DNA from: Lachnospiraceae bacterium
GTDB lineage: Bacteria; Bacillota; Clostridia; Lachnospirales; Lachnospiraceae
Length of the DNA stretch: 64,000 nt
Reading direction: 5' to 3'
NCBI GenBank assembly: GCA_045642905.1
Contig: JAZUJT010000046.1
Coordinates: forward strand, 20,952 to 84,951
Positions 44,377 through 56,702 of this stretch are shown one piece after another (position 1 is the stretch's first letter; every line of letters begins with the position of its first letter). Made by a program: the position numbers and the translations under genes. The notes beneath the pieces are model-generated. The model made no database searches, was not told where the DNA came from, and was given only the letters and a program-made list of their open reading frames with translations.

Positions 44377-44715
44377 ATGCAGGAGAAAAGAAGAAGCAAA
44401 CGTACGGAACTTATATCTAAACTTTTGCTTAAAAGACTTGATGGTTCAAGTGTTGAAGAGGTAAACATCGAAGTATCCGATGTTTCCAAGACAGGGGTTG
44501 GGTTTACTTCCGATAAGGCATTAACTATCGGAGCGGTATATGAATCATTTCTTACTATTTGGACGAAGGAAGTTTTACATGCATTTGTTGAAATCGTAAG
44601 AATTGAAAAAGTCGGTAACAAGTTCAATTACGGCGGTATTTTTATCGGAATGCCCGAGATGGATGCAGCCAGAATCGAAACGTATCAGACTGTTGAGGAT
44701 GAGATAAGGAAATAA
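44377..44715 (+). CDS. Stand-alone PilZ domain protein
   Basis: RRSKR (RxxxR) and DVSKTG (DxSxxG) c-di-GMP motifs. Confidence 0.9.
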   Translation: MQEKRRSKRTELISKLLLKRLDGSSVEEVNIEVSDVSKTGVGFTSDKALTIGAVYESFLTIWTKEVLHAFVEIVRIEKVGNKFNYGGIFIGMPEMDAARIETYQTVEDEIRK

Positions 44716-44730
44716 ATGTACAATTTACTT

Positions 44731-44760
44731 AAAAGGCGCCTTTGCGAAGGCGTCTTTTTT
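44731..44760 (+). terminator. Intrinsic terminator after PilZ gene
   Basis: AAAAGGCGCCTT/AAGGCGTCTTTT. Confidence 0.85.
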
Positions 44761-44896
44761 GTTATATTTCTAAATTTTTACTTGCGTAAAGTCTATTTGT
44801 TTAGTAAAATGTACCTATGAAACCGAAATTTTGTGTTAATTTTTTGAAAAATGCAACAATTTTCGGAATCAATTCTATTTTCGGAGGTTAGCAAAT

Positions 44897-46990
44897 ATGA
44901 ATGTTTACACAACTGACAAGATAAGAAACGTCGTATTATTGGGGCACGGCGGATGCGGAAAGACTTCTCTTGCGGAAGCAATGGCATATCTTGCAGGTCT
45001 TACTTCTCGTATGGGTAAGACGGATGACGGAAACACAATCAGCGATTACGGTAAAGAAGAACAGAAGAGAAAGTTTTCAATAAATACATCATTGATTCCT
45101 CTCGAATGGGAAGGATATAAGATTAATCTTTTGGATACACCCGGATATTTCGATTTTGTTGGTGAAGTTGAGGAAGCTGTTGCAGCAGCCGATGCAGCCA
45201 TTATAGTTGTATCGGGTAAATCGGGATTTGAAGTAGGTACCGAAAAGGCGTGGGACATTTGCGAAAAGTATAAGCTTCCCAGATTTGTATTTGTTACGGA
45301 TATGGATTTGGATAATGCTTCATTTAAAAATGTTCTTGAAACAATGAGCGAGAAATACGGAAAGAGAATGGCTCCTTTCCATCTTCCCATCAGAGAGAAC
45401 GAAAAGCTTATCGGTTATGTAAATGTTATTTCCGAAACCGGTAATAAGTGGCAGGGTAAGGAAGCGGTTGAAATTCCCGTTCCCGAGTATTCAAAAGCCA
45501 ATCTTGCACAGTACAGAGATACTCTTCTTGAAACTGTTGCCGAGACAAGCGAAGAATTTATGGACAGATACTTCAGCGGCGAGACATTCTCCGAAGCTGA
45601 AATCAGAGCTGCATTAAGACAGAACGTTATGGATTCATCCGTTGTTCCCATGACAATGGGGTCAAGTGTTCTTTGTTACGGTATTTATACTTTGCTGGAT
45701 GATATTATTAAATACTTCCCCAGCCCCGAAAATTGCAAGATTGCCGGTATTTCCACAAAGACCAATGAAATTTTTGAAGCCAATTATGATTTCTCCAAGA
45801 CTAAATCGGCTTTCGTATTTAAGACAATTGTCGATCCTTTTATCGGTAAGTATTCACTCATTAAGGTTTGTTCAGGTGTATTGAAGCCCGATGACATGAT
45901 TTACAATCTTGATAAGGACATCGAAGAAAAGGTAAGTAAGCTTTATACTCTTCAGGGTAACAAGCCTATTGAAATTTCAGAATTACACGCAGGTGATATC
46001 GGTGCTATTCCGAAATTATCGGCTGCTCGTACAGGAAACTCACTTTCCACAAAGGCCAATGTTATCAAGTATCCTATGTTTGATGTTTCAAAGCCTTATA
46101 CATACAAGAGATATAAAGCTGTTAATAAAGCGGATATCGATAAGATTTCACAGGCTCTTCAGAAGATTACGCATGAAGACCTTACCATTAAGAATGTCAA
46201 CGATTCCGAGAACGGACAGATGCTTCTTTACGGAATGGGCGATATGCATCTTGACCTTGCTGTTTCCAGACTTAAGAACGAATATAAAGTTGAAGTGGAA
46301 CTTGAGAAACCCAAGATTGCATTCAGAGAAACCATTAAGAAGAAATCGGATGTTGAATACAAGTATAAGAAACAATCCGGCGGACATGGTCAGTACGGTC
46401 ATGTAAAGATGAGATTTGAACCTGCTGACGATATTAAGGTTCCTTATACATTCGAAGAAGAAGTTGTCGGCGGTGCTATTCCCAAGAACTACTTCCCCGC
46501 AGTTGAAAAGGGACTTCAGGATTCGGTTGAAAGAGGACCTTTGGCAGCATATCCCGTAGTCGGTGTAAAGGCTGTTTTATATGATGGTTCTTATCATCCT
46601 GTTGATTCTTCCGAAATGGCATTTAAGATGGCTACCATTCAGGCATTTAAGAAAGGATTTATGGAAGCAGGCCCCGTACTTCTCGAGCCTATTGCTACTT
46701 TAAAGGTTAATGTTCCCGATTCCTTTACCGGTGACGTTATGGGAGACCTTAATAAGAGAAGAGGCCGTGTTCTTGGCATGAATCCCATACCCGGCGGAAG
46801 ACAGATTATTGAAGCAAGTATTCCGATGATGAGCCTTTATGGTTATTGTACAGACCTTCGCTCCATGACCGGTGGACGAGGAGAGTACGAATATGAATTT
46901 GATCGCTATGAGCAGGCTCCCAGTGATATTCAGGAAGCTCAGGTTAAAGAACGTGCAGCTAAGGTTGCCGAATCAAATGTTGATGCATGA
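44897..46990 (+). CDS. Elongation factor G paralogue (EF-G II type, outside str operon)
   Basis: IRNV..GHGGCGKT, DTPG..DF, G.G..HL, KKQSGGHGQYG, DGSYHPVDSSEMAF, LRSMT.GRG. Confidence 0.92.
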   Translation: MNVYTTDKIRNVVLLGHGGCGKTSLAEAMAYLAGLTSRMGKTDDGNTISDYGKEEQKRKFSINTSLIPLEWEGYKINLLDTPGYFDFVGEVEEAVAAADAAIIVVSGKSGFEVGTEKAWDICEKYKLPRFVFVTDMDLDNASFKNVLETMSEKYGKRMAPFHLPIRENEKLIGYVNVISETGNKWQGKEAVEIPVPEYSKANLAQYRDTLLETVAETSEEFMDRYFSGETFSEAEIRAALRQNVMDSSVVPMTMGSSVLCYGIYTLLDDIIKYFPSPENCKIAGISTKTNEIFEANYDFSKTKSAFVFKTIVDPFIGKYSLIKVCSGVLKPDDMIYNLDKDIEEKVSKLYTLQGNKPIEISELHAGDIGAIPKLSAARTGNSLSTKANVIKYPMFDVSKPYTYKRYKAVNKADIDKISQALQKITHEDLTIKNVNDSENGQMLLYGMGDMHLDLAVSRLKNEYKVEVELEKPKIAFRETIKKKSDVEYKYKKQSGGHGQYGHVKMRFEPADDIKVPYTFEEEVVGGAIPKNYFPAVEKGLQDSVERGPLAAYPVVGVKAVLYDGSYHPVDSSEMAFKMATIQAFKKGFMEAGPVLLEPIATLKVNVPDSFTGDVMGDLNKRRGRVLGMNPIPGGRQIIEASIPMMSLYGYCTDLRSMTGGRGEYEYEFDRYEQAPSDIQEAQVKERAAKVAESNVDA

Positions 46991-47012
46991 TTAATTCATA
47001 TGTTATATAATG

Positions 47013-47041
47013 AGAAACGGTTGCAGGTTGCAACCGTTTCT
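47013..47041. other. Strong hairpin between EF-G II and Hpt gene
   Basis: AGAAACGGTTGCA-GGT-TGCAACCGTTTCT; weak T-tract, so terminator or mRNA stabiliser. Confidence 0.6.
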
Positions 47042-47068
47042 TAATATTTGTAAAGGTGGAATTTATTT

Positions 47069-47428
47069 ATGTTAGAATCACAGAAAGAAAAACTTTTGTC
47101 TTTGGATGTTGATTTGGATGAGACATTGGAACGATTTGTCGGTAATGAAAATTTGTTTTTTAAATGTTTGAATCGTTTTTTGGACGATACCAACTATCAT
47201 CAGCTGCTCGCCGCAATCGATATTAACGATGCAAAGGTTGCTTTTGAAGCTGCACATGCATTAAAGGGTGTAGCCGCAAATTTGGGATTTGTTAATTTGT
47301 ATCATGAAGTTTCTGTTATTACGGATGTATTCAGAGCAGGCTCCATGGAATATGACAAGGATAATTTTGAACGTATAAAGAGCGAATACAATAAAACCGT
47401 AGATGTTATTCGTACCTTGGGAATTTAA
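47069..47428 (+). CDS. Stand-alone Hpt phosphotransfer protein
   Basis: AHALKGVAANLG. Confidence 0.9.
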   Translation: MLESQKEKLLSLDVDLDETLERFVGNENLFFKCLNRFLDDTNYHQLLAAIDINDAKVAFEAAHALKGVAANLGFVNLYHEVSVITDVFRAGSMEYDKDNFERIKSEYNKTVDVIRTLGI

Positions 47429-47450: not shown

Positions 47451-47482
47451 CGTTTGGAAAATCTTTCCAAACGTCTTTTTTT
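47451..47482 (+). terminator. Intrinsic terminator after Hpt gene
   Basis: CGTTTGGAAA/TTTCCAAACG plus T-tract. Confidence 0.85.
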
Positions 47483-47582
47483 ATGCCTTTTTAACTTCAT
47501 ATAGTGTATTAATACATCGGTCGGTAACTATATCTTGTAAAGATTACTCTTGATAAATTATCAATATATAGTAAAATAGAAC

Positions 47583-48800
47583 ATGAGTATTTATGATGAT
47601 TTGATAAAAGGGAATATTATGAATTCAGACAGTGCTGATAAATTTTCGTCTTATAAAGGAAATGATGCTGCAGCTTCGGATAAGAGAATAATTGAATTAT
47701 TAAAATCCAAATATGATTTCAATAATCCTGACGATGTAATTAAGTGTTACCGAGACATTCAGAATGTTCATTTTTCTTCGGAATTGGGAAGAAAATTTGA
47801 TGATTATATTTTTGACTTAAAGAATTCCGTAAAAAATGCCGATATAAATAAAAATAATGGTATTGTGCCCAAATCCGGAAAGGGTAATGTATCTTCGGGC
47901 GGTTCGGGTAAAGATAAAGTCAATAAAAGGGATACTTTAAAGAATAGCGATAAAAAGATTTCATATACGGATGACAGTATTCTTAATCAGGAAGCGATTA
48001 AGGAACTGAACCGCCGGAATAAATTACGAAATATGATAATTTTTCTTTTGCTCGCACTTGCAGGATGTTCGATATTTTTCTTCGGCATCTATTATAAGGA
48101 TGCGTATGAGGCACAGAAGGAAGCTCAACGATTTGCAGAGCTTAAAAGTTCCGAGGTATCACAGTTTATAACCGTTGAACAGGAACTTAAGAAAGACTAT
48201 GATACGACAGTTGTCATTCCGGAAATTTTGGATGAATACAAAGCTTTGTATAACAAGAATAAAAGTCTTATAGGATGGATAAAAATCGACGACACGAAGA
48301 TTGATTATCCCGTTATGCAGACAATTAATAACGATTATTATCTGAAACATAATTTTGACCAGAAGGAAGATGCAAACGGTTGTATTTTCCTTGATACCGA
48401 TTGCGACATTATTCTTGGATGTACCAATTATATAGTTTACGGTCATCATATGAATTCGGGTAAGATGTTCGGTTCTTTGGTTAAATACGGTTCATATGAT
48501 TTTTACAAGAATCATGACACTATTTACTTTGATACCATTTATGAGAAGGGCACATACAAAATCATGTATGTATTCAGGTCTCATATTTACAATGAAGATG
48601 AAATAGCTTTTAAGTATTATCAATTTATTCAGGCCAACTCGGAAGCGGAGTTCAATTCCGCAATGGATTCGATGGCCGAAATGTCATTATATGAAACAGG
48701 AGTTTATCCCCATTACGGCGATCAGCTTCTTACACTTTCAACCTGTGATTATCAGGAAGCAAACGGTAGATTTGTTGTTGTTGCCAAAAAGGTAGACTGA
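47583..48800 (+). CDS. srtB: Class B sortase with long N-terminal pre-TM extension
   Basis: GWI.I..T.IDYPVMQ..NN.YYL, YGHHM..GKMFG.L, LTLSTC, RFVV; start may instead be 47619. Confidence 0.92.
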   Translation: MSIYDDLIKGNIMNSDSADKFSSYKGNDAAASDKRIIELLKSKYDFNNPDDVIKCYRDIQNVHFSSELGRKFDDYIFDLKNSVKNADINKNNGIVPKSGKGNVSSGGSGKDKVNKRDTLKNSDKKISYTDDSILNQEAIKELNRRNKLRNMIIFLLLALAGCSIFFFGIYYKDAYEAQKEAQRFAELKSSEVSQFITVEQELKKDYDTTVVIPEILDEYKALYNKNKSLIGWIKIDDTKIDYPVMQTINNDYYLKHNFDQKEDANGCIFLDTDCDIILGCTNYIVYGHHMNSGKMFGSLVKYGSYDFYKNHDTIYFDTIYEKGTYKIMYVFRSHIYNEDEIAFKYYQFIQANSEAEFNSAMDSMAEMSLYETGVYPHYGDQLLTLSTCDYQEANGRFVVVAKKVD

Positions 48801-48817
48801 CCTAAAAGGAGATCATT

Positions 48818-51800
48818 ATGGCACTTAAGAAGAAAACTTCAAGAAGAACAAAAAGAATTGTGAGGAAGACTATTGCGGGTCTTTGTATGGCAAGTGCAAT
48901 AATTGTTGCCTGCATACCGGCACCCAAGACAGCCGCATATGTTACTCCTACAGGATATGATTATAAATATGCTGTTGAAGCAACTGACAGTACTCCCAAG
49001 GCATCTATGGGTGATCCTTTATATTCCAACGGCGTAGAATTGGATAAATTGTATTTTGACACTTTTAATCCCGGTGGTACGCTTCAGGAAGACGATCCTT
49101 CCGTATTTAAAATTATGAATGTTCTTCCACTTACCAACGGTACATATACACTAAATTGGCAGTTTAAGATTTATTTGCAGACTGTCGGTTCTATTCCGAT
49201 GGGTGTTATTTGTAAGTATAATTCAACCTATGCCGCAGATGATATTTCCATTCAGCCTACCATGCCTTTGGAATATATGATTATTTCGGCGGACGAATAT
49301 AATAAATTCTATAAAGTATTTGAAACGGCGGATACTGCCGATACAGCAGAATTTACTTTAAAAGACAATACAACCAAGAAGACTTTGCAGAATAAATATT
49401 ATTCCAAATATTCAGACTTTCCGGCTTCAATCATTACCGAAAATGATGATGAATGGTGGCTTGATAAATATTTCCATGATTTGTACACTCAATACTTAAG
49501 CTTGTTCCCGAAGTATGAGCAATATCTTGTTGATCTCGAACTTTATAACCAATATCAGTCCGACCTTGCTCATTATAATGCTTATCTTCAGTCATATAAT
49601 GAGTGGAAGGCTGCGGGAGAAGATCCCAATACAAAGCCTGCTGTTGTGGAAGAGCCCGAGTATGTAAAGAATCCTACCGTGGTAAATGAGCCTACGCTTG
49701 TATGCTATGTAAAGGATATGAAGATTGATGCCAAGAAATCTTTCTTCTGTGATGTAAACCCCGATTATAATAATAACCTTATTTCTCTTAAGGATTATAA
49801 ACTTGCCGAAGTACTTGATTACAGTCAGGCGGCTGCGGGAAGCCCTTCCGTAAAGACTGTATATATGCCTAAGGGTGAGCCGAATGCAAACTTTAACGAT
49901 CCCGGTTCCATCAGCGATGATAACCCCAATGACGGAAACGGTTTCAGAATTATCGACAAATGTCTTGTTATTGCCATCGGTGACAACGCTTTTCGTAAGA
50001 CTACGAATGTAAATTCACTTACTATTTGTCCCGAAATTAAATATATCGGTGATAATGCTTTCAGAGATTCATTTGTTTCCAATGTAACCTTTAGCAACGT
50101 TGAAAATATCGGAAACAGAGCATTTTACGGTTGTTCCAAACTGGATTCCATCAAATTTCCTTCCGGTGCCACAAATATAGGTACGGAAGCATTTTACGGA
50201 ACCGCCCTGACACAAGTTGTTTTCCCTGTATCGGTTGAGTATATCGGTCCGGGTGCATTTGCAAATTGTAACAGACTTACTTCTCTTGATTTCAGTACAA
50301 TGAACAAGACAAGTGCCACAATTGACAACTTTGCATTTTACGATGATATAAAGCTTACCGATATTAAGTTTTCAAATTCCATTAAGTTTATCGGAGACGC
50401 GGCATTTGCATGCAGCACTTCCGTTTCGGGTGCATTGACTACATTTACATTCCCCGAAAATATTTCAAGCGATCCTAACGGTCTCGGTAATTTTGTTTTG
50501 GCAGGTCGTACCAATTTGAAGCATGTAATTATGCCTCCGGATTACGGTAAATTTACGACTGTTGAATTACCTTACGGTACTTTTGCAAACTGTTTGAACC
50601 TTGAATGTGTTGAGTTCCCTACCGATTCGGATAATGCCAACTCCTGCGGTCTTGTTACGTTCGGAGTTTATAACGACGGTTCCAACACCAGAACTATTTT
50701 CGATTCAATTCGAAATAAGGATTTCTATGTAAGAGGTCCCGAACTTGATTACACCAATGCGGTTGCATCTCCCCGTAAGTCTACCTGGGGACTTAAGACC
50801 AACCTTGGCAATGATGTTCCTTATGTTTATACAGATGCTAACGGCGAGGAGCATTTTGAAATTTCAAACGGTGATTACATTTTAATTATTGATGATAATG
50901 GTATTTTACAGTCATGTAAGCTTTTGGATAACAGTCCGGCAACTCTTGCGGAAGGTATTGACATGATTATCCCCGAGAAGGTCGGAGATACCGAAGTTGT
51001 CGGTATTGCATCCACTTGCTTCAATGACAAGGATATCCACGATAACATGACTTCGCTTACCATAAACGATAATTCCATCAGTGAGATTGCGCCCGAAGCA
51101 TTCAAAAACTGTAAGCGTCTGGAGAAGGTAAGTATCGGTAATACGGTTACCAAGATTGGTGACAGTGCATTTGAAGGATGTAACAAGTTGACTTACGTTA
51201 ATTTCGAAGCACCTGTTAACGGATATTCTTCATTCCCGATTAGCAATATCGGTAACAATGCATTCAGTACCGGTGCGCCTACTCTTACTTTCGAAGGTGA
51301 TATCGAAGAAGGATACGGTCCTTTTGACTGGGCTATGCAGTACGATAACTACGTAGATCCCAATAACGGTGTAAGAGTATGTTACACAAGCGGTTATCCT
51401 ACATATTTAACCGTTATCGTTGACAACAGAAATAAGATGCCTACCCTTGTTTCATATCCTCATTACGAGATGATTGATGAACTTTCCGGAACCAAAGATG
51501 ATGAGCATCCTCTTTCCGAAAGATACATTCATCTCGGTGAAACATATGATGATAACGGAACTACCGAAATTTACAGTATGACTCTTAACGAGGAAAAGCT
51601 TGTTAACTCGACCTTGAACCTTGTTGTTCCCAAGGCTATTAAGTCTGTAGACGTTATGGGCTACATGAATAACAGTTCCAAGGAAGATCCCAATTTAACA
51701 GGTGTTCATACCAATACAAATAATGTTTCGAAGTATTTGTTTAAAGACTCATACTTTGACCAATATAAGAAGAACGGTCTTTTCTCGGGTTATTACGGAA

Positions 51801-53845
51801 ATGAGACCGATGCAGATGGCAAGAAACGTGAAAATCCTGCAGGCAGCTCTTTGGAAAAAGAAAGTAAAGGTAATGATATTTTAACTTCCATACGTTTGGA
51901 AGGCGTTGAATATCTTCCCGATTACTGCTTCGACAGCTGCGAACAGCTTAAGAGTGTATATATCGGTGATCAATGCGAATCCGTAGGTGCCGCACCTTTC
52001 ATCGGTTGCTATAACCTTACAAGCCTTGCAATCGATAATCCTTCTTACAAATGTGAAAACGGTATTCTTTACAAGGATAAAGGTGACGGTTCATATTCGC
52101 TTGTTGAAGTTTTAGGCTCAAGAGGAACTCTTGTCGGTGATTCAAAGCTTAAAGTATGCGAAAAGGATCCTTTGCTTTCATCCGTTTCAGAGATAGAAGA
52201 CAGTGCAATCATGGATTGCGGCGGCGTTTACGGAGTAGACCTTCGCGGTATGGATCTTATGAAAGTCCTTCCCGACAATTGCTTCAAAAACGACCATAAG
52301 TTAAGCCAGATTATTGTTCCGGATAATATTACTTCCGTAGGTCATGAGTGTTTTGCAAATACAATGGAAGGCATTCAGGTAGTATTTTACGGTGAAGAAG
52401 TATTCCTTCCTCCGGATACATTTAAGGATTTGGAAAACTTTGCCGTTGTTTCATATGAAAGATCTGCGGTAAGAAAAGCAGCAAGAGATTTAGGTGCTGA
52501 TGTTTCCCAGACTCTTGATTACACTTACAAGTGTCAGTTCTTCGATTGGGACGGAAAAGAACTTTCCGATATTATCTTTATCGTAGAAGGTGAGAATGTA
52601 AGTCTTGATTATGTACCGGAAGATCCTAAGCGTGTAGGATATAAGTTTACCGGTTGGGATAAGTCATTACAGAATATTTGCGAAGATACTCTTTTCTTTG
52701 CAACATATGAAGTTGATCCCGATTATGAGTACGAGCCCGGTGATGAAGATTCTTCGGGTTCGAAAGGTGGCTCGGGCTCCAAAAAGAAGACTTCGGAATC
52801 GGTTTCCGAAGGCGGCGGTGGTTCGGGTTCGGGTTCTTCCGACGATGACAGCGCTTCATCAACAAGTAAGAAAAAGAAAACTTCCGGAAGCAAATCATCC
52901 GGTTCAGGTTCGGGTTCGGGCTCAGGCTCGAGTTCGGGTTCGGGCGGCGGAGAAGATCCCGTTACTCCCGAGGATAAGAAGTTTTATACATTAACCGTTA
53001 ACGGCGGTAACGGAAGCGGCTCTTATGTTGAAGGATCAACCGTAGTTATTTCCTGTACGAATGTACCTGCCGGAAAACAGTTTGATAAGTGGATTCCCGA
53101 AACGGCTGACCTTGGTATTGCCAGTGTTTCGATTTCGGCAACTACGCTTGTTATGCCCGGTCATAATGCTGTAGTAAATGCTTCTTTTGTTGATAAAGGA
53201 ACTGCAACAACGACTCCGGCGTCTACAACCACCTCGACATCCGCATCGACATCCAAGAAAGATGACGGTGGCACAAAGGTTGTTGTTTCCAAGAACGGTA
53301 TTTCCAATACCGGACTTGCCAGCGCCAAGGTTACCGGTTCACCTGATGATTTTGTAATCAGAATAAATGAAACTCAGGCCGCTACCGAAGCTGTTGAAGC
53401 TGCACTTATTAACGAATACGGTTCACTTGACAATATCAGGTATTCGGCAATGGATATTACTTTATACGATGCTACAGGAAGTAATCTGATTACCGATTAT
53501 TCGGGACTTAGCATTTCAATTACAATTCCGATTCCGGATACACTTACACAGTATGCAGGTAACAACAAGGTTGCTGGTGTAGTTAATGACAGACTCGATA
53601 AATTGAATCCCAAGTATACTTCTATTGACGGAGTACCTTGTATGACATTTACCGCAACTCATTTCTCACCTTATACCATTTATGCTGATGTAACCAATAT
53701 TTCAACAGGAAAGATTGATGCTACACCCAAGACAGGTGATCATATTGAGCCCAAGTGGTTCCTTTCATTCGGACTCGCAGCTATATCAATTGCTTTGTTC
53801 TTCATGAAAGACAGAAAGAAGAAATCATATATTACTGTTGCTTAA
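48818..53845 (+). CDS. Large sortase-anchored BspA-type leucine-rich-repeat surface protein (1675 aa)
   Basis: Basic N-terminus plus hydrophobic signal; many IG..AF..C..L repeats; InlB-B-like repeats (P.RVGYKFTGWD; GKQFDKW); Gly/Ser linker; TPKTG + TM + basic tail. Confidence 0.9.
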   Translation: MALKKKTSRRTKRIVRKTIAGLCMASAIIVACIPAPKTAAYVTPTGYDYKYAVEATDSTPKASMGDPLYSNGVELDKLYFDTFNPGGTLQEDDPSVFKIMNVLPLTNGTYTLNWQFKIYLQTVGSIPMGVICKYNSTYAADDISIQPTMPLEYMIISADEYNKFYKVFETADTADTAEFTLKDNTTKKTLQNKYYSKYSDFPASIITENDDEWWLDKYFHDLYTQYLSLFPKYEQYLVDLELYNQYQSDLAHYNAYLQSYNEWKAAGEDPNTKPAVVEEPEYVKNPTVVNEPTLVCYVKDMKIDAKKSFFCDVNPDYNNNLISLKDYKLAEVLDYSQAAAGSPSVKTVYMPKGEPNANFNDPGSISDDNPNDGNGFRIIDKCLVIAIGDNAFRKTTNVNSLTICPEIKYIGDNAFRDSFVSNVTFSNVENIGNRAFYGCSKLDSIKFPSGATNIGTEAFYGTALTQVVFPVSVEYIGPGAFANCNRLTSLDFSTMNKTSATIDNFAFYDDIKLTDIKFSNSIKFIGDAAFACSTSVSGALTTFTFPENISSDPNGLGNFVLAGRTNLKHVIMPPDYGKFTTVELPYGTFANCLNLECVEFPTDSDNANSCGLVTFGVYNDGSNTRTIFDSIRNKDFYVRGPELDYTNAVASPRKSTWGLKTNLGNDVPYVYTDANGEEHFEISNGDYILIIDDNGILQSCKLLDNSPATLAEGIDMIIPEKVGDTEVVGIASTCFNDKDIHDNMTSLTINDNSISEIAPEAFKNCKRLEKVSIGNTVTKIGDSAFEGCNKLTYVNFEAPVNGYSSFPISNIGNNAFSTGAPTLTFEGDIEEGYGPFDWAMQYDNYVDPNNGVRVCYTSGYPTYLTVIVDNRNKMPTLVSYPHYEMIDELSGTKDDEHPLSERYIHLGETYDDNGTTEIYSMTLNEEKLVNSTLNLVVPKAIKSVDVMGYMNNSSKEDPNLTGVHTNTNNVSKYLFKDSYFDQYKKNGLFSGYYGNETDADGKKRENPAGSSLEKESKGNDILTSIRLEGVEYLPDYCFDSCEQLKSVYIGDQCESVGAAPFIGCYNLTSLAIDNPSYKCENGILYKDKGDGSYSLVEVLGSRGTLVGDSKLKVCEKDPLLSSVSEIEDSAIMDCGGVYGVDLRGMDLMKVLPDNCFKNDHKLSQIIVPDNITSVGHECFANTMEGIQVVFYGEEVFLPPDTFKDLENFAVVSYERSAVRKAARDLGADVSQTLDYTYKCQFFDWDGKELSDIIFIVEGENVSLDYVPEDPKRVGYKFTGWDKSLQNICEDTLFFATYEVDPDYEYEPGDEDSSGSKGGSGSKKKTSESVSEGGGGSGSGSSDDDSASSTSKKKKTSGSKSSGSGSGSGSGSSSGSGGGEDPVTPEDKKFYTLTVNGGNGSGSYVEGSTVVISCTNVPAGKQFDKWIPETADLGIASVSISATTLVMPGHNAVVNASFVDKGTATTTPASTTTSTSASTSKKDDGGTKVVVSKNGISNTGLASAKVTGSPDDFVIRINETQAATEAVEAALINEYGSLDNIRYSAMDITLYDATGSNLITDYSGLSISITIPIPDTLTQYAGNNKVAGVVNDRLDKLNPKYTSIDGVPCMTFTATHFSPYTIYADVTNISTGKIDATPKTGDHIEPKWFLSFGLAAISIALFFMKDRKKKSYITVA
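52751..52951 (+). repeat. Gly/Ser low-complexity linker (TCGGGT-type hexamers)
   Basis: Encodes SSGSKGGSGSKKKTS...KKKKTSGSKSSGSGSGSGSGSSSGSGGG. Confidence 0.8.
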
Positions 53846-53855
53846 GGGCGAATAA

Positions 53856-56651
53856 ATGGCAAAAAAGATTTTCAGAAGAAGCGTAGGAACCCTATTGATT
53901 CTTTTGGCCATATTGGTTTTAAGACTTCCAATGGGGTTAGATGCTTCCAAAACTAATACTCAATCCGATTTTTTGATGGACAATGACATATTGGTTAAAT
54001 ACACAGGCACGGCGGAAACCGTGTCTGTTCCTGATTCTGTTAAAGAAATCGGTGAAGAGGCCTTTAGCGGAAATTCTGTTTTAAAGAAGATTACTTTGCC
54101 CAAAAATCTTGAAAAGATTAGTTATGGTGCATTTTACGAATGCAGTTCGCTTGAAAAGATAGCGATACCCGACAAGTGCAATACCATAGAAACCGCTGCA
54201 TTCGGAAATTGTGTTTCATTAAAAGAAGTTTCAATGGGTGCCAATCTTAAGTCTCTCGGCAACGGTGTATTTGTCGGATGCTCTTCATTAAAGAAGATTT
54301 CATCCGCTTCCCCGGACTATATTTGCACCAATTCAGCTATATATAATAAGGACAAAACAAAATTAATCGAGGTTTTGCCCACTTTAAAATCCGATAATTT
54401 TAAAATCGCTTCATCAACAAAAACGATTATGCCTTATGCGTTTTACGGTTGTAATAAGATTAAGTCTGTAACATTACCGACGGATATTGCAGAAATTCCA
54501 TCTTATTCCTTTTCAAATTGTAACGGGCTTAAGAGTATTTCTCTTCCCTATTCCGTTTTGAATATTGACGCAAAGGCTTTTGAAAATTGTTCCAATCTTA
54601 CAAATGTGTTTATTCCCGAATCTGTTTCGTACATTCATTCAACAGCATTTGACGGATGCCCGAAGCTTTCGGTTGATGCTCCTACGGGATGCTATGCATA
54701 CAATTGGTTTAAGCAATTTGATAATTCCGATGTTGCGATAACCGACAGCGAAGATAACGATAATGATGTTATTTCGGATGACAGTGATGAAGAGAATAAG
54801 GAAGATAAGGAAAATACATCCGATAATAAACAGCCTTCCGAAAATAAGGACGGCAAGCAATTATTTGAAATACATACCGTTTCGGGAAACAATATAGGTC
54901 AGACTCGTGTTGTTGGAAGAAATGCGGTTTTCTTCATTGACAATACAGAGGCACCGGTAAGCGAAGAAAATATATCGGGTTCGGAAGCTTCTTTACCTTT
55001 GGATAATCCGGATTTTTCGGATTTTGATTTTATTCCCGAAGATAATAATTTGAAAGGTTCTTTGTTATTTAAACTTTCAATTGTTGATAACAAAATCGCA
55101 GGTAAAGCTTTTTACGGCGACACATCGTTGACTTCATATGAAATCCCGGAAAATATTTCTTCGATAGGTGATTTTTCTTTTGCCAGATCGGGACTTGAAA
55201 CCATAGTAATTCCGGATGGTGTTACTTCAATAGGATACGGTGCGTTTTATCATTGCGATAATTTGAAAAATATTGTTGTACCTTCTTCGGTTACGAGAAT
55301 TGAAGCATCTGCGTTCGATATGACCAGAATGATGGATAACTTCAAAAAGTACGGTTCTTCGGATTTCATGATTCTCGGAGACGGTATTTTGGTTGCATAT
55401 AAGGGAAAGGATAGTTCCGTTCATATTCCCGATGGCGTTAAACAAATCGGAGCGAATTGCTTTGAAAACAATAAGTCTGTTTCCGAAGTATATCTTCCCG
55501 ACAGTATAGTATCCATCGGAGAGGACGCCTTTAACGGTTGTTCTTCGCTTAAGTATTTAAGCGGCGGCATGAATTTAAAGACAATCGAAGACAGAGCATT
55601 TATGAATTGCCCGCTGGAGACCGTAAGAATAGTTGAATCGGTTGAAAATATCGGTTTAAGAGCTTTTGATTATTCGGACTCAGATATTTCGGAAAATAAG
55701 AAAGTTGCTTATTTCTACGGGGATGATCTTCCCAAGATTTATTATGGAAAGCTTTCATCGAGACTTACCAACGAAGATTACCGTAAGGATGCTTTAAGCG
55801 ATGTGAAAATTGCGGTTGTATCCAATGAAAACATTAATTTGAAAGGAACCGTTCTTGATAAAGATTTGTCCGGCTTTTCCGGAATTATTTGTGTAACTGC
55901 CGTTAAAAATTCGGGCTTATCGAACGGTACTTTGAAAATTATCGGAAATACTCTATCTTATGAAGAGGCTTTGGATTTCTCCGTTCCCGATACTGTATTG
56001 GTATTCGGAAAAGAATATGATTTGTCGCAGGATGAACTTTCGGTTTCCTTAAATGAGGTCTTAAGCAATCATATCGACGAGACTTCTGAGGCACAAAATT
56101 CTGAATCTGAAGAAACCGATACAATTAATATGGATGAGTATGTTTCTTTTGGCGGTTCGGATGATTTATATAAAATAGAGATTGCATACGATGAGCATCC
56201 AAGTGAGGAGATTAGCAGAGCTTATTACAGGGCATTTTCACAATCGGTGCCTTCAAACGTAATTTCGTTTGATATAAATGTTCATAAAAAGGACAGCGAT
56301 ATTTATCTTTCCAAGTTTGGCAAACAAATGCTTAAAGTATCGACTGATGTTCCGAGTATAGCAACACAAGGAAAGCTTCATCTTGTATGTCTTGATGATG
56401 ACGGTCAGCTTGAAGAAGTTAAATACGTTAATGTTAATGATGAATCGGGAAATAAACTTGAATTTTCCGTAAATCATACCGGCAAATTTGCATTTTACAG
56501 TATTAAGTCCGAATCGGACGGCATGAATATGGATGATTCGCCCGATACGGGAGATCATTCGATTGAACCTAAATTGTTTTTGGCAATAGGGTTGTTCCTT
56601 GCGGGAATTGCAATGTTTTTGATTAAGGGAAAGAAAAAATACATTGTTTAA
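53856..56651 (+). CDS. Sortase-anchored BspA-type LRR surface protein (931 aa)
   Basis: Signal peptide; two LRR blocks; acidic linker; SPDTG + TM + basic tail. Confidence 0.9.
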   Translation: MAKKIFRRSVGTLLILLAILVLRLPMGLDASKTNTQSDFLMDNDILVKYTGTAETVSVPDSVKEIGEEAFSGNSVLKKITLPKNLEKISYGAFYECSSLEKIAIPDKCNTIETAAFGNCVSLKEVSMGANLKSLGNGVFVGCSSLKKISSASPDYICTNSAIYNKDKTKLIEVLPTLKSDNFKIASSTKTIMPYAFYGCNKIKSVTLPTDIAEIPSYSFSNCNGLKSISLPYSVLNIDAKAFENCSNLTNVFIPESVSYIHSTAFDGCPKLSVDAPTGCYAYNWFKQFDNSDVAITDSEDNDNDVISDDSDEENKEDKENTSDNKQPSENKDGKQLFEIHTVSGNNIGQTRVVGRNAVFFIDNTEAPVSEENISGSEASLPLDNPDFSDFDFIPEDNNLKGSLLFKLSIVDNKIAGKAFYGDTSLTSYEIPENISSIGDFSFARSGLETIVIPDGVTSIGYGAFYHCDNLKNIVVPSSVTRIEASAFDMTRMMDNFKKYGSSDFMILGDGILVAYKGKDSSVHIPDGVKQIGANCFENNKSVSEVYLPDSIVSIGEDAFNGCSSLKYLSGGMNLKTIEDRAFMNCPLETVRIVESVENIGLRAFDYSDSDISENKKVAYFYGDDLPKIYYGKLSSRLTNEDYRKDALSDVKIAVVSNENINLKGTVLDKDLSGFSGIICVTAVKNSGLSNGTLKIIGNTLSYEEALDFSVPDTVLVFGKEYDLSQDELSVSLNEVLSNHIDETSEAQNSESEETDTINMDEYVSFGGSDDLYKIEIAYDEHPSEEISRAYYRAFSQSVPSNVISFDINVHKKDSDIYLSKFGKQMLKVSTDVPSIATQGKLHLVCLDDDGQLEEVKYVNVNDESGNKLEFSVNHTGKFAFYSIKSESDGMNMDDSPDTGDHSIEPKLFLAIGLFLAGIAMFLIKGKKKYIV

Positions 56652-56669: not shown

Positions 56670-56702
56670 AAAAACTCACTGATATAAGGCAGTGAGTTTT
56701 TT
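56670..56702 (+). terminator. Terminator of sortase locus
   Basis: AAAAACTCACTG/CAGTGAGTTTTT. Confidence 0.88.

What the first reader, a model, noticed from the sequence alone, without database searches (positions are those of the whole stretch)
53345..56600. Sortase-B substrate pair with an HFS autoproteolysis-like switch: one possibly sheddable adhesin, one permanently anchored
Seen: both LRR proteins end in a homologous ~110-aa beta-rich domain directly above near-identical sorting signals (TPKTGDHIEPKWFL at 53723; SPDTGDHSIEPKLFL at 56538). In the 1675-aa protein this domain ends FTATHFSPYTIY (H-F-S at 53660-53668). The paralogue has FSVNHTGKFAFY (H-T-G at 56475-56483), with Gly where the Ser nucleophile would be. 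Established: H-F/L|S/T is the cis-autoproteolysis motif of Nup98, PIDD ZU5 and adhesion-GPCR GAIN/GPS domains, and C. difficile SrtB recognises (S/P)PxTG. Inference: the large protein self-cleaves just above the wall anchor and stays non-covalently held until released (for example by force), while the second protein cannot. This would be a dedicated sortase locus with releasable and fixed adhesins.
Basis: partly seen in the sequence, partly recalled or inferred. Interest (0 to 1): 0.72.

Follow-up and report, generated by a model that had tools for sequence, protein, structure and literature searches.

The report
Self-cutting and uncuttable surface protein pair
A three-gene unit of Lachnospiraceae bacteria encodes a wall-anchoring enzyme and two leucine-rich surface proteins that each end in a likely copy of a recently described bacterial self-cutting domain; the large protein keeps the cutting residues in every relative examined and likely cuts itself, while the small one has lost them throughout this genus (but not in most other genera) and would stay fixed to the wall.

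Summary
Genes 47583-56651 form a predicted operon: a class-B-like sortase, LRR protein A (1675 aa, HFS) and LRR protein B (931 aa, HTG). They hold the only sortase and the only two sorting signals found in this 79%-complete assembly. The shared domain is most likely MAIN (microbial GAIN-like; Brogan and Rudner 2026), already shown to self-cleave at HF|S above sortase anchors, including in an LRR protein. The link to YfkN-type domains is indirect (intermediate profile, E 1e-8 to 2e-4); fold matches to ZU5/GAIN are weak (Z 4-6). A keeps HFS in 41/41, 30/30, 21/21 and 120/120 relatives. B's Ser-to-Gly change is fixed in this genus (31/31; purifying selection), but 18 of 22 plus 11 of 11 full-length B orthologues elsewhere keep H-F/L-S/T. 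Others lost the triad separately, the whole domain, the anchor, or the gene. 'One sheddable, one fixed' is therefore a derived, genus-level state, not the design of the locus. Cleavage, release, and adhesion are untested. Value: a natural matched series for asking whether MAIN cleavage matters.

The parts
47550..47577 (+). sigma-70-like promoter match upstream of the sortase, after a terminator-like hairpin at 47451-47473
   Evidence: 10 of 12 matches; consensus match only, 30 such sites found against 33.6 by chance
47583..48800 (+). class-B-like sortase, 405 aa; membrane segment aa 147-172; YGHH 286-289, TLSTC 384-388, GRF 395-397; conserved cytoplasmic N-terminal extension
   Evidence: PF04203 E 6e-15; TIGR03064 150.2 bits against cut-off 153.75; motifs; only sortase found in the assembly
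48818..53845 (+). protein A, 1675 aa: predicted signal peptide, BspA-type LRRs, InlB B-repeat-like domains, Ser/Gly linkers, MAIN-like domain, sorting signal
53267..53701 (+). MAIN-like domain of A (aa 1484-1628), the most conserved part of A
   Evidence: AF2 pLDDT 94.8; profile link to YfkN-type domains; conservation 0.6-0.8 against mostly 0.1-0.5 elsewhere
53660..53668 (+). H1615-F1616-S1617; predicted self-cleavage between F1616 and S1617
   Evidence: between strands E123-130 and E135-141 of the model; invariant
53723..53845 (+). sorting signal of A: TPKTG, membrane segment aa 1645-1663, basic tail
   Evidence: TIGR01167 23.6 bits, cut-off 15.9
53856..56651 (+). protein B, 931 aa: predicted signal peptide, two LRR blocks, acidic linkers, triad-less MAIN-like domain, sorting signal
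54891..54941 (+). about 17-aa hairpin-like motif of B (aa about 346-362), kept in nearly every form of B, including forms lacking either LRR block, the MAIN domain or the anchor
   Evidence: function unknown
56130..56516 (+). MAIN-like domain of B (aa 759-887) with H-T-G at 56475-56483 in place of H-F-S
   Evidence: AF2 pLDDT 88.4; homology to A; Gly in 31 of 31 genus orthologues
56538..56651 (+). sorting signal of B: SPDTG, membrane segment aa 902-926, basic tail
   Evidence: TIGR01167 16.1 bits, cut-off 15.9
56670..56701 (+). intrinsic-terminator-like hairpin closing the unit

Best explanation
This is a predicted three-gene operon in which one sortase likely anchors two secreted leucine-rich-repeat proteins to the wall; protein A likely cuts itself at F1616|S1617 in a MAIN (microbial GAIN-like) domain, and protein B carries a Gly-for-Ser copy that would not cut. 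Shown: gene order, motifs, homology and conservation. Inferred from the MAIN preprint: His deprotonates Ser, an N-O acyl shift and hydrolysis follow, and the last strand stays threaded in the sandwich. A's ectodomain (about 1,575 residues) would then hang without a covalent bond on a 23-residue wall stub (S1617-T1639) and could be pulled off; release by force is a hypothesis. B's loss is derived. It was fixed once in the ancestor of this genus, and the domain is kept under purifying selection, most likely as a folded spacer above the anchor. Cleavage is under strict selection in A and relaxed in B, whose tail is free to be cleavable, dead, deleted or unanchored. My odds: A cleaves 0.85; B does not 0.93; A's release has a force-sensing role 0.45.
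For: HFS invariant in A: 41 of 41 family loci, 30 of 30 genus sequences, 21 of 21 further loci, 120 of 120 listed hits. It lies in the turn between the last two strands of a confident model. A profile built only from 41 distant Bacillota domains (36 with HFS) hits two YfkN-type domains (E 1e-8), A (1.7e-5) and B (1.7e-4), with all HFS in register. Among 3,935 ORFs of the own genome its only other hit at E<1 is one further homologue. One YfkN-type protein has Metallophos, 5'-nucleotidase and LPXTG domains with HFS at 1337; the preprint gives S1346 for YfkN. Structural neighbours include CARD8 (Z 6.3), ankyrin ZU5 (6.0), BAI3 GAIN (5.4), NLRP1 FIIND (5.1), CD97 (5.0) and CELSR1 (4.9). The preprint states that ZU and GPS labels refer to this fold. 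B in the genus: HTG 28, HSG 2, QMG 1 of 31. Gly is written by three codons (GGA 16, GGT 8, GGC 5 of 29), and the median dN/dS is 0.09 over the 10 unsaturated pairs. The 32 HxG/QMG rows form one branch (support 100) and four losses are needed on the B tree. Ser-to-Ala abolishes YfkN cleavage. One sortase and two sorting signals in the assembly.
Against: No cleavage was tested. No fold match is significant: Foldseek best E 1.5e-3 (A) and 5.4e-3 (B); VIA Z all under 8, with unrelated glycosidase domains and an axonemal protein ranked above or level with ZU5/GAIN. The direct profile-profile comparison with two YfkN-type domains is weak (probability 4.4%, E 0.009). The intermediate rows were picked with our own profile. 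An H-X-S/T motif is not sufficient: BAI2 stays uncut despite HLS (PMC13062082, passages), and the MAIN preprint says 'nearly all' tested domains cleaved. Three of the 10 dN/dS pairs for B gave 0.4-0.8. No ligand is known for either LRR protein.
Confidence: 0.75

Rival explanations
1. Designed division of labour: the locus exists to display one releasable and one permanently fixed adhesin, and the Ser-to-Gly change in B was selected for that.
For: Gly is fixed in 31 of 31 genus sequences with synonymous turnover. At least four separate losses of the triad occurred in B and none in A. One other genus has HMG with an intact sorting signal (L060).
Against: 18 of 22 and 11 of 11 full-length B orthologues outside the genus keep H-F/L-S/T. 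In 12 of 40 loci B has no MAIN domain (10 with no C-terminal anchor) and in 5 it is absent. Relaxed selection on cleavage explains this without a designed pair; Gly may simply suit the turn.
Confidence: 0.2
2. Cleavage in A is a maturation step or by-product; the halves never part in life and the domain works as a rigid stalk, so both proteins are effectively fixed.
For: YfkN release was shown only with SDS or 95 C. GAIN halves stay tightly bound, and some receptors work uncut (PMC13197933, passages). B tolerates loss of the triad.
Against: The triad of A never varies across proteins down to 44% identity in this region, which is hard to explain if cleavage had no use. GAIN halves dissociate at 10-20 pN in tweezers.
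Confidence: 0.3
3. A does not cleave despite HFS (a cleavage-resistant domain, like BAI2), or the domain is an unrelated beta-sandwich.
For: Weak fold scores; weak direct profile match; BAI2 precedent.
Against: Invariant H, F and S in all sets; in-register transitive link to YfkN-type domains; MAIN position directly above an anchor.
Confidence: 0.13
4. B still cleaves, using the Thr/Ser of H-T-G or H-S-G in a shifted register.
For: The middle position is a hydroxyl residue in 30 of 31 genus sequences and His is kept in 30 of 31.
Against: The register is fixed by flanking aromatics. One member has QMG and another genus has HMG. The known chemistry needs His two residues before the nucleophile.
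Confidence: 0.05

Closest known systems
MAIN (Microbial Autoproteolysis INducing) domains; B. subtilis YfkN; Pseudoruminococcus massiliensis LRR-CBM26-MAIN protein (Brogan and Rudner, bioRxiv 10.64898/2026.05.12.724683; parts 1-6 of 7 read, supplements closed)
   Same: Signal peptide, large ectodomain with LRRs, HFS domain, then sortase signal; predicted cut at HF|S with the halves held together; common in Bacillota.
   Different: Here two paralogues share an operon with their own sortase. One carries a natural, purifying-selected Ser-to-Gly variant, and the B tail varies across genera. I saw no natural dead MAIN, no Lachnospiraceae and no such operon in the text read (find for 'Lachnospir', 'uncleaved', 'sortase B' gave 0). 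Tables S2/S3 may list these proteins.
Adhesion-GPCR GAIN domains, including non-cleaving BAI2 (HLS) and BAI3 (RLS) (PMC13062082, passages)
   Same: Same predicted chemistry; cleaving and non-cleaving paralogues coexist.
   Different: No seven-helix receptor and no tethered agonist; the stub would be linked to peptidoglycan.
ZU5/FIIND domains (CARD8, NLRP1, ankyrin, UNC5b)
   Same: Among the better structural neighbours (Z 3.7-6.3); CARD8 and NLRP1 are self-cleaving (recalled).
   Different: Cytoplasmic eukaryotic proteins; scores are below the significance mark.
Clostridioides difficile SrtB and its (S/P)PXTG substrates (PMC4155245, abstract); protease release of CD2831 (PMC4591827, search listing only)
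   Same: Single class-B sortase; SPxTG signal in B; sheddable sortase-anchored surface proteins.
   Different: A has T/S/N-P-x-T-G. Release here would be by self-cleavage, not by a separate protease. The sortase has an extra cytoplasmic N-terminal part.
BspA-type LRR surface proteins (Pfam LRR_5; LrrG/HupY)
   Same: LRR_5 repeats, E 1e-64 and 3e-92.
   Different: Far below the HupY/LrrG cut-off (40.9 and 125.4 bits against 1250); ligand unknown.

Membership tests
MAIN domain (protein A) | sequence homology to the YfkN domain | tested here: met
   Indirect: one intermediate profile hits YfkN-type L186/L188 (E 1e-8) and A (1.7e-5), HFS in register, no unrelated hit in 3,935 ORFs. Direct hhalign is weak. 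YfkN itself was not available; architecture-matched orthologues stood in.
MAIN domain (protein A) | GAIN-B/ZU5-like beta-sandwich fold | tested here: inconclusive
   pLDDT 94.8; Z 4.0-6.3 to ZU5 and GAIN chains, none at 8 or more; Foldseek best E 1.5e-3
MAIN domain (protein A) | H-hydrophobic-S/T in the turn before the last strand, conserved | tested here: met
MAIN domain (protein A) | order signal peptide, ectodomain, MAIN, surface anchor | tested here: met
   (signal peptide judged from hydropathy only)
MAIN domain (protein A) | Ser-dependent autoproteolysis with the halves staying bound | not testable with these tools
   needs expression and purification
MAIN domain (protein B, this genus) | homology to the family | tested here: met
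   E 2e-12 to A; 1.7e-4 to the distant-only profile
MAIN domain (protein B, this genus) | H-hydrophobic-S/T triad | tested here: not met
   HTG; Gly in 31 of 31. Filed as a triad-less MAIN-like domain, not an active member.
class B sortase (TIGR03064) | score above the curated cut-off | tested here: inconclusive
   150.2 bits against 153.75; best family by far
class B sortase (TIGR03064) | His, Cys (TLxTC) and Arg catalytic motifs | tested here: met
   YGHH 286, TLSTC 384, GRF 395; motif roles recalled
C. difficile-type SrtB substrate | (S/P)PXTG, membrane segment, basic tail | tested here: inconclusive
   met by B (SPDTG); A has TPKTG; both pass TIGR01167; anchoring untested
adhesion GPCR GAIN | seven-helix receptor behind the domain | tested here: not met
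   a single C-terminal membrane segment
adhesin | binding to a host, cell or substrate ligand | not testable with these tools
   LRR_5 and B-repeat-like domains only suggest it

The most novel reading that the evidence does not exclude
A and B form one two-chain surface complex. B docks in trans through its retained hairpin motif, which is why B can lose its MAIN domain and even its anchor. A's invariant self-cleaving joint is the single release point. In this genus the uncuttable, wall-fixed B acts as a leash or brake on the shed A, so the B tail tunes how easily the complex detaches.
Probability: 0.13. Interest if true: 0.65.

Novelty: new variant of a known kind. Interest (0 to 1): 0.36.

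Why it matters
The open question about MAIN domains is whether self-cleavage serves release in life. This operon gives a natural series on one orthologous protein (B cleavable, triad-dead, domain deleted, unanchored) beside a paralogue whose triad never varies. Wild-type and swap experiments could therefore test the value of cleavage without artificial mutants. The mechanism itself is already published, which caps the surprise.

Tried and rejected
Complex prediction of A(665-1628) with B's hairpin (36 aa): no answer, score 0.00, neither for nor against binding. Foldseek against PDB: no match at E<=0.001 for either model; Nup98 was not among the listed rows, which excludes nothing. PDB sequence search with the domain profile: 6 weak hits, best E 0.014, none informative. 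Pfam and NCBIfam have no model for the domain. ESM Atlas on a homologue's domain: unnamed hypothetical clusters and one low-share phage family, uninformative; two other Atlas queries could not be run. RNA runs: none listed. Columns of A that relax where B is missing (6 loci): 5 of 9 fall in the MAIN domain, but those loci are also more distant, so I did not use this. Hairpin search in 5 genomes whose locus lacks B: one 72-aa frame at E 0.1, otherwise not found. Frameshift explanation for short B genes: tblastn found no leftover B tail in 17 loci; the C-terminal-domain hits fell on A's own domain, and in L061 also on a separate upstream protein. The careful IQ-TREE run did not finish; quick and FastTree trees were used. 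Literature: searches found the MAIN preprint and nothing on this operon. Searches did not confirm my recollection of a natural H-L-G non-cleaving GAIN, so I do not rely on it.

Full report
Observation. The window encodes, on the plus strand, a 405-aa sortase (47583-48800), protein A (48818-53845, 1675 aa) and protein B (53856-56651, 931 aa), separated by 17 and 10 bases. A promoter-like match precedes them and a terminator-like hairpin follows (consensus matches only). A has HFS at residues 1615-1617 (nt 53660-53668) and B has HTG at 874-876 (nt 56475-56483), about 20 residues above TPKTG and SPDTG. The two C-termini align at 25% identity, E 2e-12, with the triplets in register. Both are LRR_5 proteins; A also has InlB B-repeat-like domains. 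Both tails pass the TIGR01167 cut-off. The sortase scores 150.2 bits on the class B model, just under its cut-off of 153.75, and has the His, Cys and Arg motifs. In this 79%-complete assembly it is the only sortase found, and A and B are the only frames that passed my sorting-signal filter.

What the domain is. AlphaFold2 gives confident models (mean pLDDT 94.8 for A 1484-1628, 88.4 for B 759-887). In A, HFS lies between the last two strands. Fold searches are suggestive only. Foldseek found nothing at E<=0.001. VIA-align lists CARD8 (Z 6.3), ankyrin ZU5 (6.0), BAI3 GAIN (5.4), NLRP1 FIIND (5.1), CD97 (5.0) and CELSR1 (4.9) among 48,161 chains. An axonemal protein and glycosidase domains rank above or level with them, and no Z reaches 8. 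The profile of the domain finds 2,262 cluster representatives at E<=0.001 and matches in 53 of 401 genomes of the phylum at E<=0.01. The distant matches I opened mostly end in HFS just before SLH-like or membrane tails (SLH judged by eye). A profile built only from 41 of those distant domains (36 with HFS; one doubtful row, L154, left out) hits two YfkN-type domains at E 1e-8, A at 1.7e-5 and B at 1.7e-4. Among 3,935 own-genome ORFs it hits only one further homologue. One of the YfkN-type proteins has Metallophos, 5'-nucleotidase and LPXTG domains with HFS at 1337. The direct profile comparison with those two domains is weak (E 0.009, probability 4.4%). I take the domain to be MAIN with about 85-90% confidence.

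What is known. Brogan and Rudner (bioRxiv 10.64898/2026.05.12.724683; parts 1-6 of 7 read; supplements closed) show that MAIN domains cleave between F and S of HFS. Ser-to-Ala blocks the cut and the halves stay bound. The domain sits just above sortase or SLH anchors, and an LRR-containing example from Pseudoruminococcus also cleaves. Release was shown only with SDS or heat; force is proposed. A GAIN study shows that the motif alone does not guarantee cleavage (PMC13062082, passages). C. difficile SrtB cuts (S/P)PXTG (PMC4155245, abstract).

A's tail matched 50 of 301 family genomes at E<=0.001, 42 of them strongly; I fetched 40 of those besides the window. The sortase lies upstream in 34 of 40 (3 at contig ends, 3 not found in the stretch). 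The downstream neighbours (HMGL-like gene, GntR-like gene or isocitrate dehydrogenase-like gene; the last two names recalled) recur in 32 of 40. This looks like a vertically inherited locus. A has HFS in 41 of 41, in the 120 best of 1,726 database hits, in 30 of 30 genus sequences and in 21 of 21 further loci (15 duplicates of 36 dropped). Its MAIN domain is the most conserved part of the protein. Source names and record titles place relatives in Lachnospiraceae, many from herbivore gut metagenomes.

B is plastic. Of the 40 loci, 23 have a full B with the domain (6 of them without an xPxTG signal), 12 have a short B without it (2 with a membrane tail only, 10 with no C-terminal anchor) and 5 have no B. 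The 22 full B proteins outside the genus read HFS 12, HLS 5, HLT 1, HCS 1, HMG 1, FLS 1, GVY 1. The further loci add 11 full B proteins, all HFS (7) or HLS (4), 5 short ones, 4 loci without B and 1 too short to tell. Inside the genus (31 genomes searched; 31 B sequences from 30 genomes) B reads HTG 28, HSG 2, QMG 1. The Gly is written by three codons and the median dN/dS of the domain is 0.09 over the 10 unsaturated pairs, 3 of which were 0.4-0.8. With the triad masked, the 32 such rows form one branch with support 100, and the tree needs four losses of the triad (FastTree, unrooted). A and the distant family have HFS, so loss in B is the simpler direction. Kin are not independent; the genus counts as one event.

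Mechanism. Shown: anatomy, homology, conservation. Inferred: both proteins are secreted and linked to peptidoglycan at xPxT|G. A cuts itself at F1616|S1617 and its ectodomain hangs on a 23-residue stub by strand insertion. B in this genus cannot cut and stays covalently fixed, with the dead domain serving as a spacer. Hypothetical: release of A by force, and adhesion. The pattern fits strict selection for cleavage in A and relaxed selection in B better than a designed pair, since most genera have two cleavable proteins, or A with a short or missing B. A selected fixed B in this genus is not excluded.

A side lead. One short hairpin-like motif of B (aa about 346-362) is kept in all 39 full-length and 11 of 12 short B proteins aligned. 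These include one lacking the first LRR block and three that end right after the motif. This suggests a partner in trans, perhaps A, and is the basis of the novel case. It has no structural test behind it.

Verdict. A real feature and a variant of a known kind: the MAIN mechanism is published, while the dedicated operon, the genus-wide dead paralogue and the variable B tail were not found in the searches. The preprint's closed tables may list these proteins. Interest 0.36.

Noticed in passing
window 47583-48020 (sortase aa 1-146): The sortase has a cytoplasmic N-terminal extension with a conserved block of about 60-70 aa in most family orthologues, with no Pfam match. It is unusual for a sortase and could regulate or localise it.
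   Followed up: partly
window 54891-54941 (B aa about 346-362): Hairpin-like motif kept in nearly every form of B, whichever LRR block, MAIN domain or anchor is lost; partner unknown.
   Followed up: partly
L131-L135 (G308, G314, G323, G306, G310): Large secreted proteins of the same genus carry a MAIN-like domain near the N-terminus (HFS or RFS at aa about 240-290), behind an acidic linker and in front of repeat domains, unlike the anchor-proximal position in the MAIN preprint.
   Followed up: partly
G000:C52:55263-57950 (minus): A third MAIN-like domain in the own genome, with KFS in place of HFS, in an 896-codon frame ending in a basic beta-rich tail without a sorting signal.
   Followed up: partly
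L137-L185: Distant family members across the phylum mostly have HFS before SLH-like tails; variants with RFS, KFS, EFS or no triad also occur, so triad-less MAIN copies are not rare.
   Followed up: no
window 44377-47428: A PilZ-like protein (below the Pfam cut-off), an EF-G-like protein (recalled) and a stand-alone Hpt protein lie upstream; this side is poorly conserved across the fetched loci.
   Followed up: no
L061:477-1928: In one genome another xPKTG-tailed protein with a weak MAIN-like match and a second sortase fragment lie upstream of the operon.
   Followed up: no
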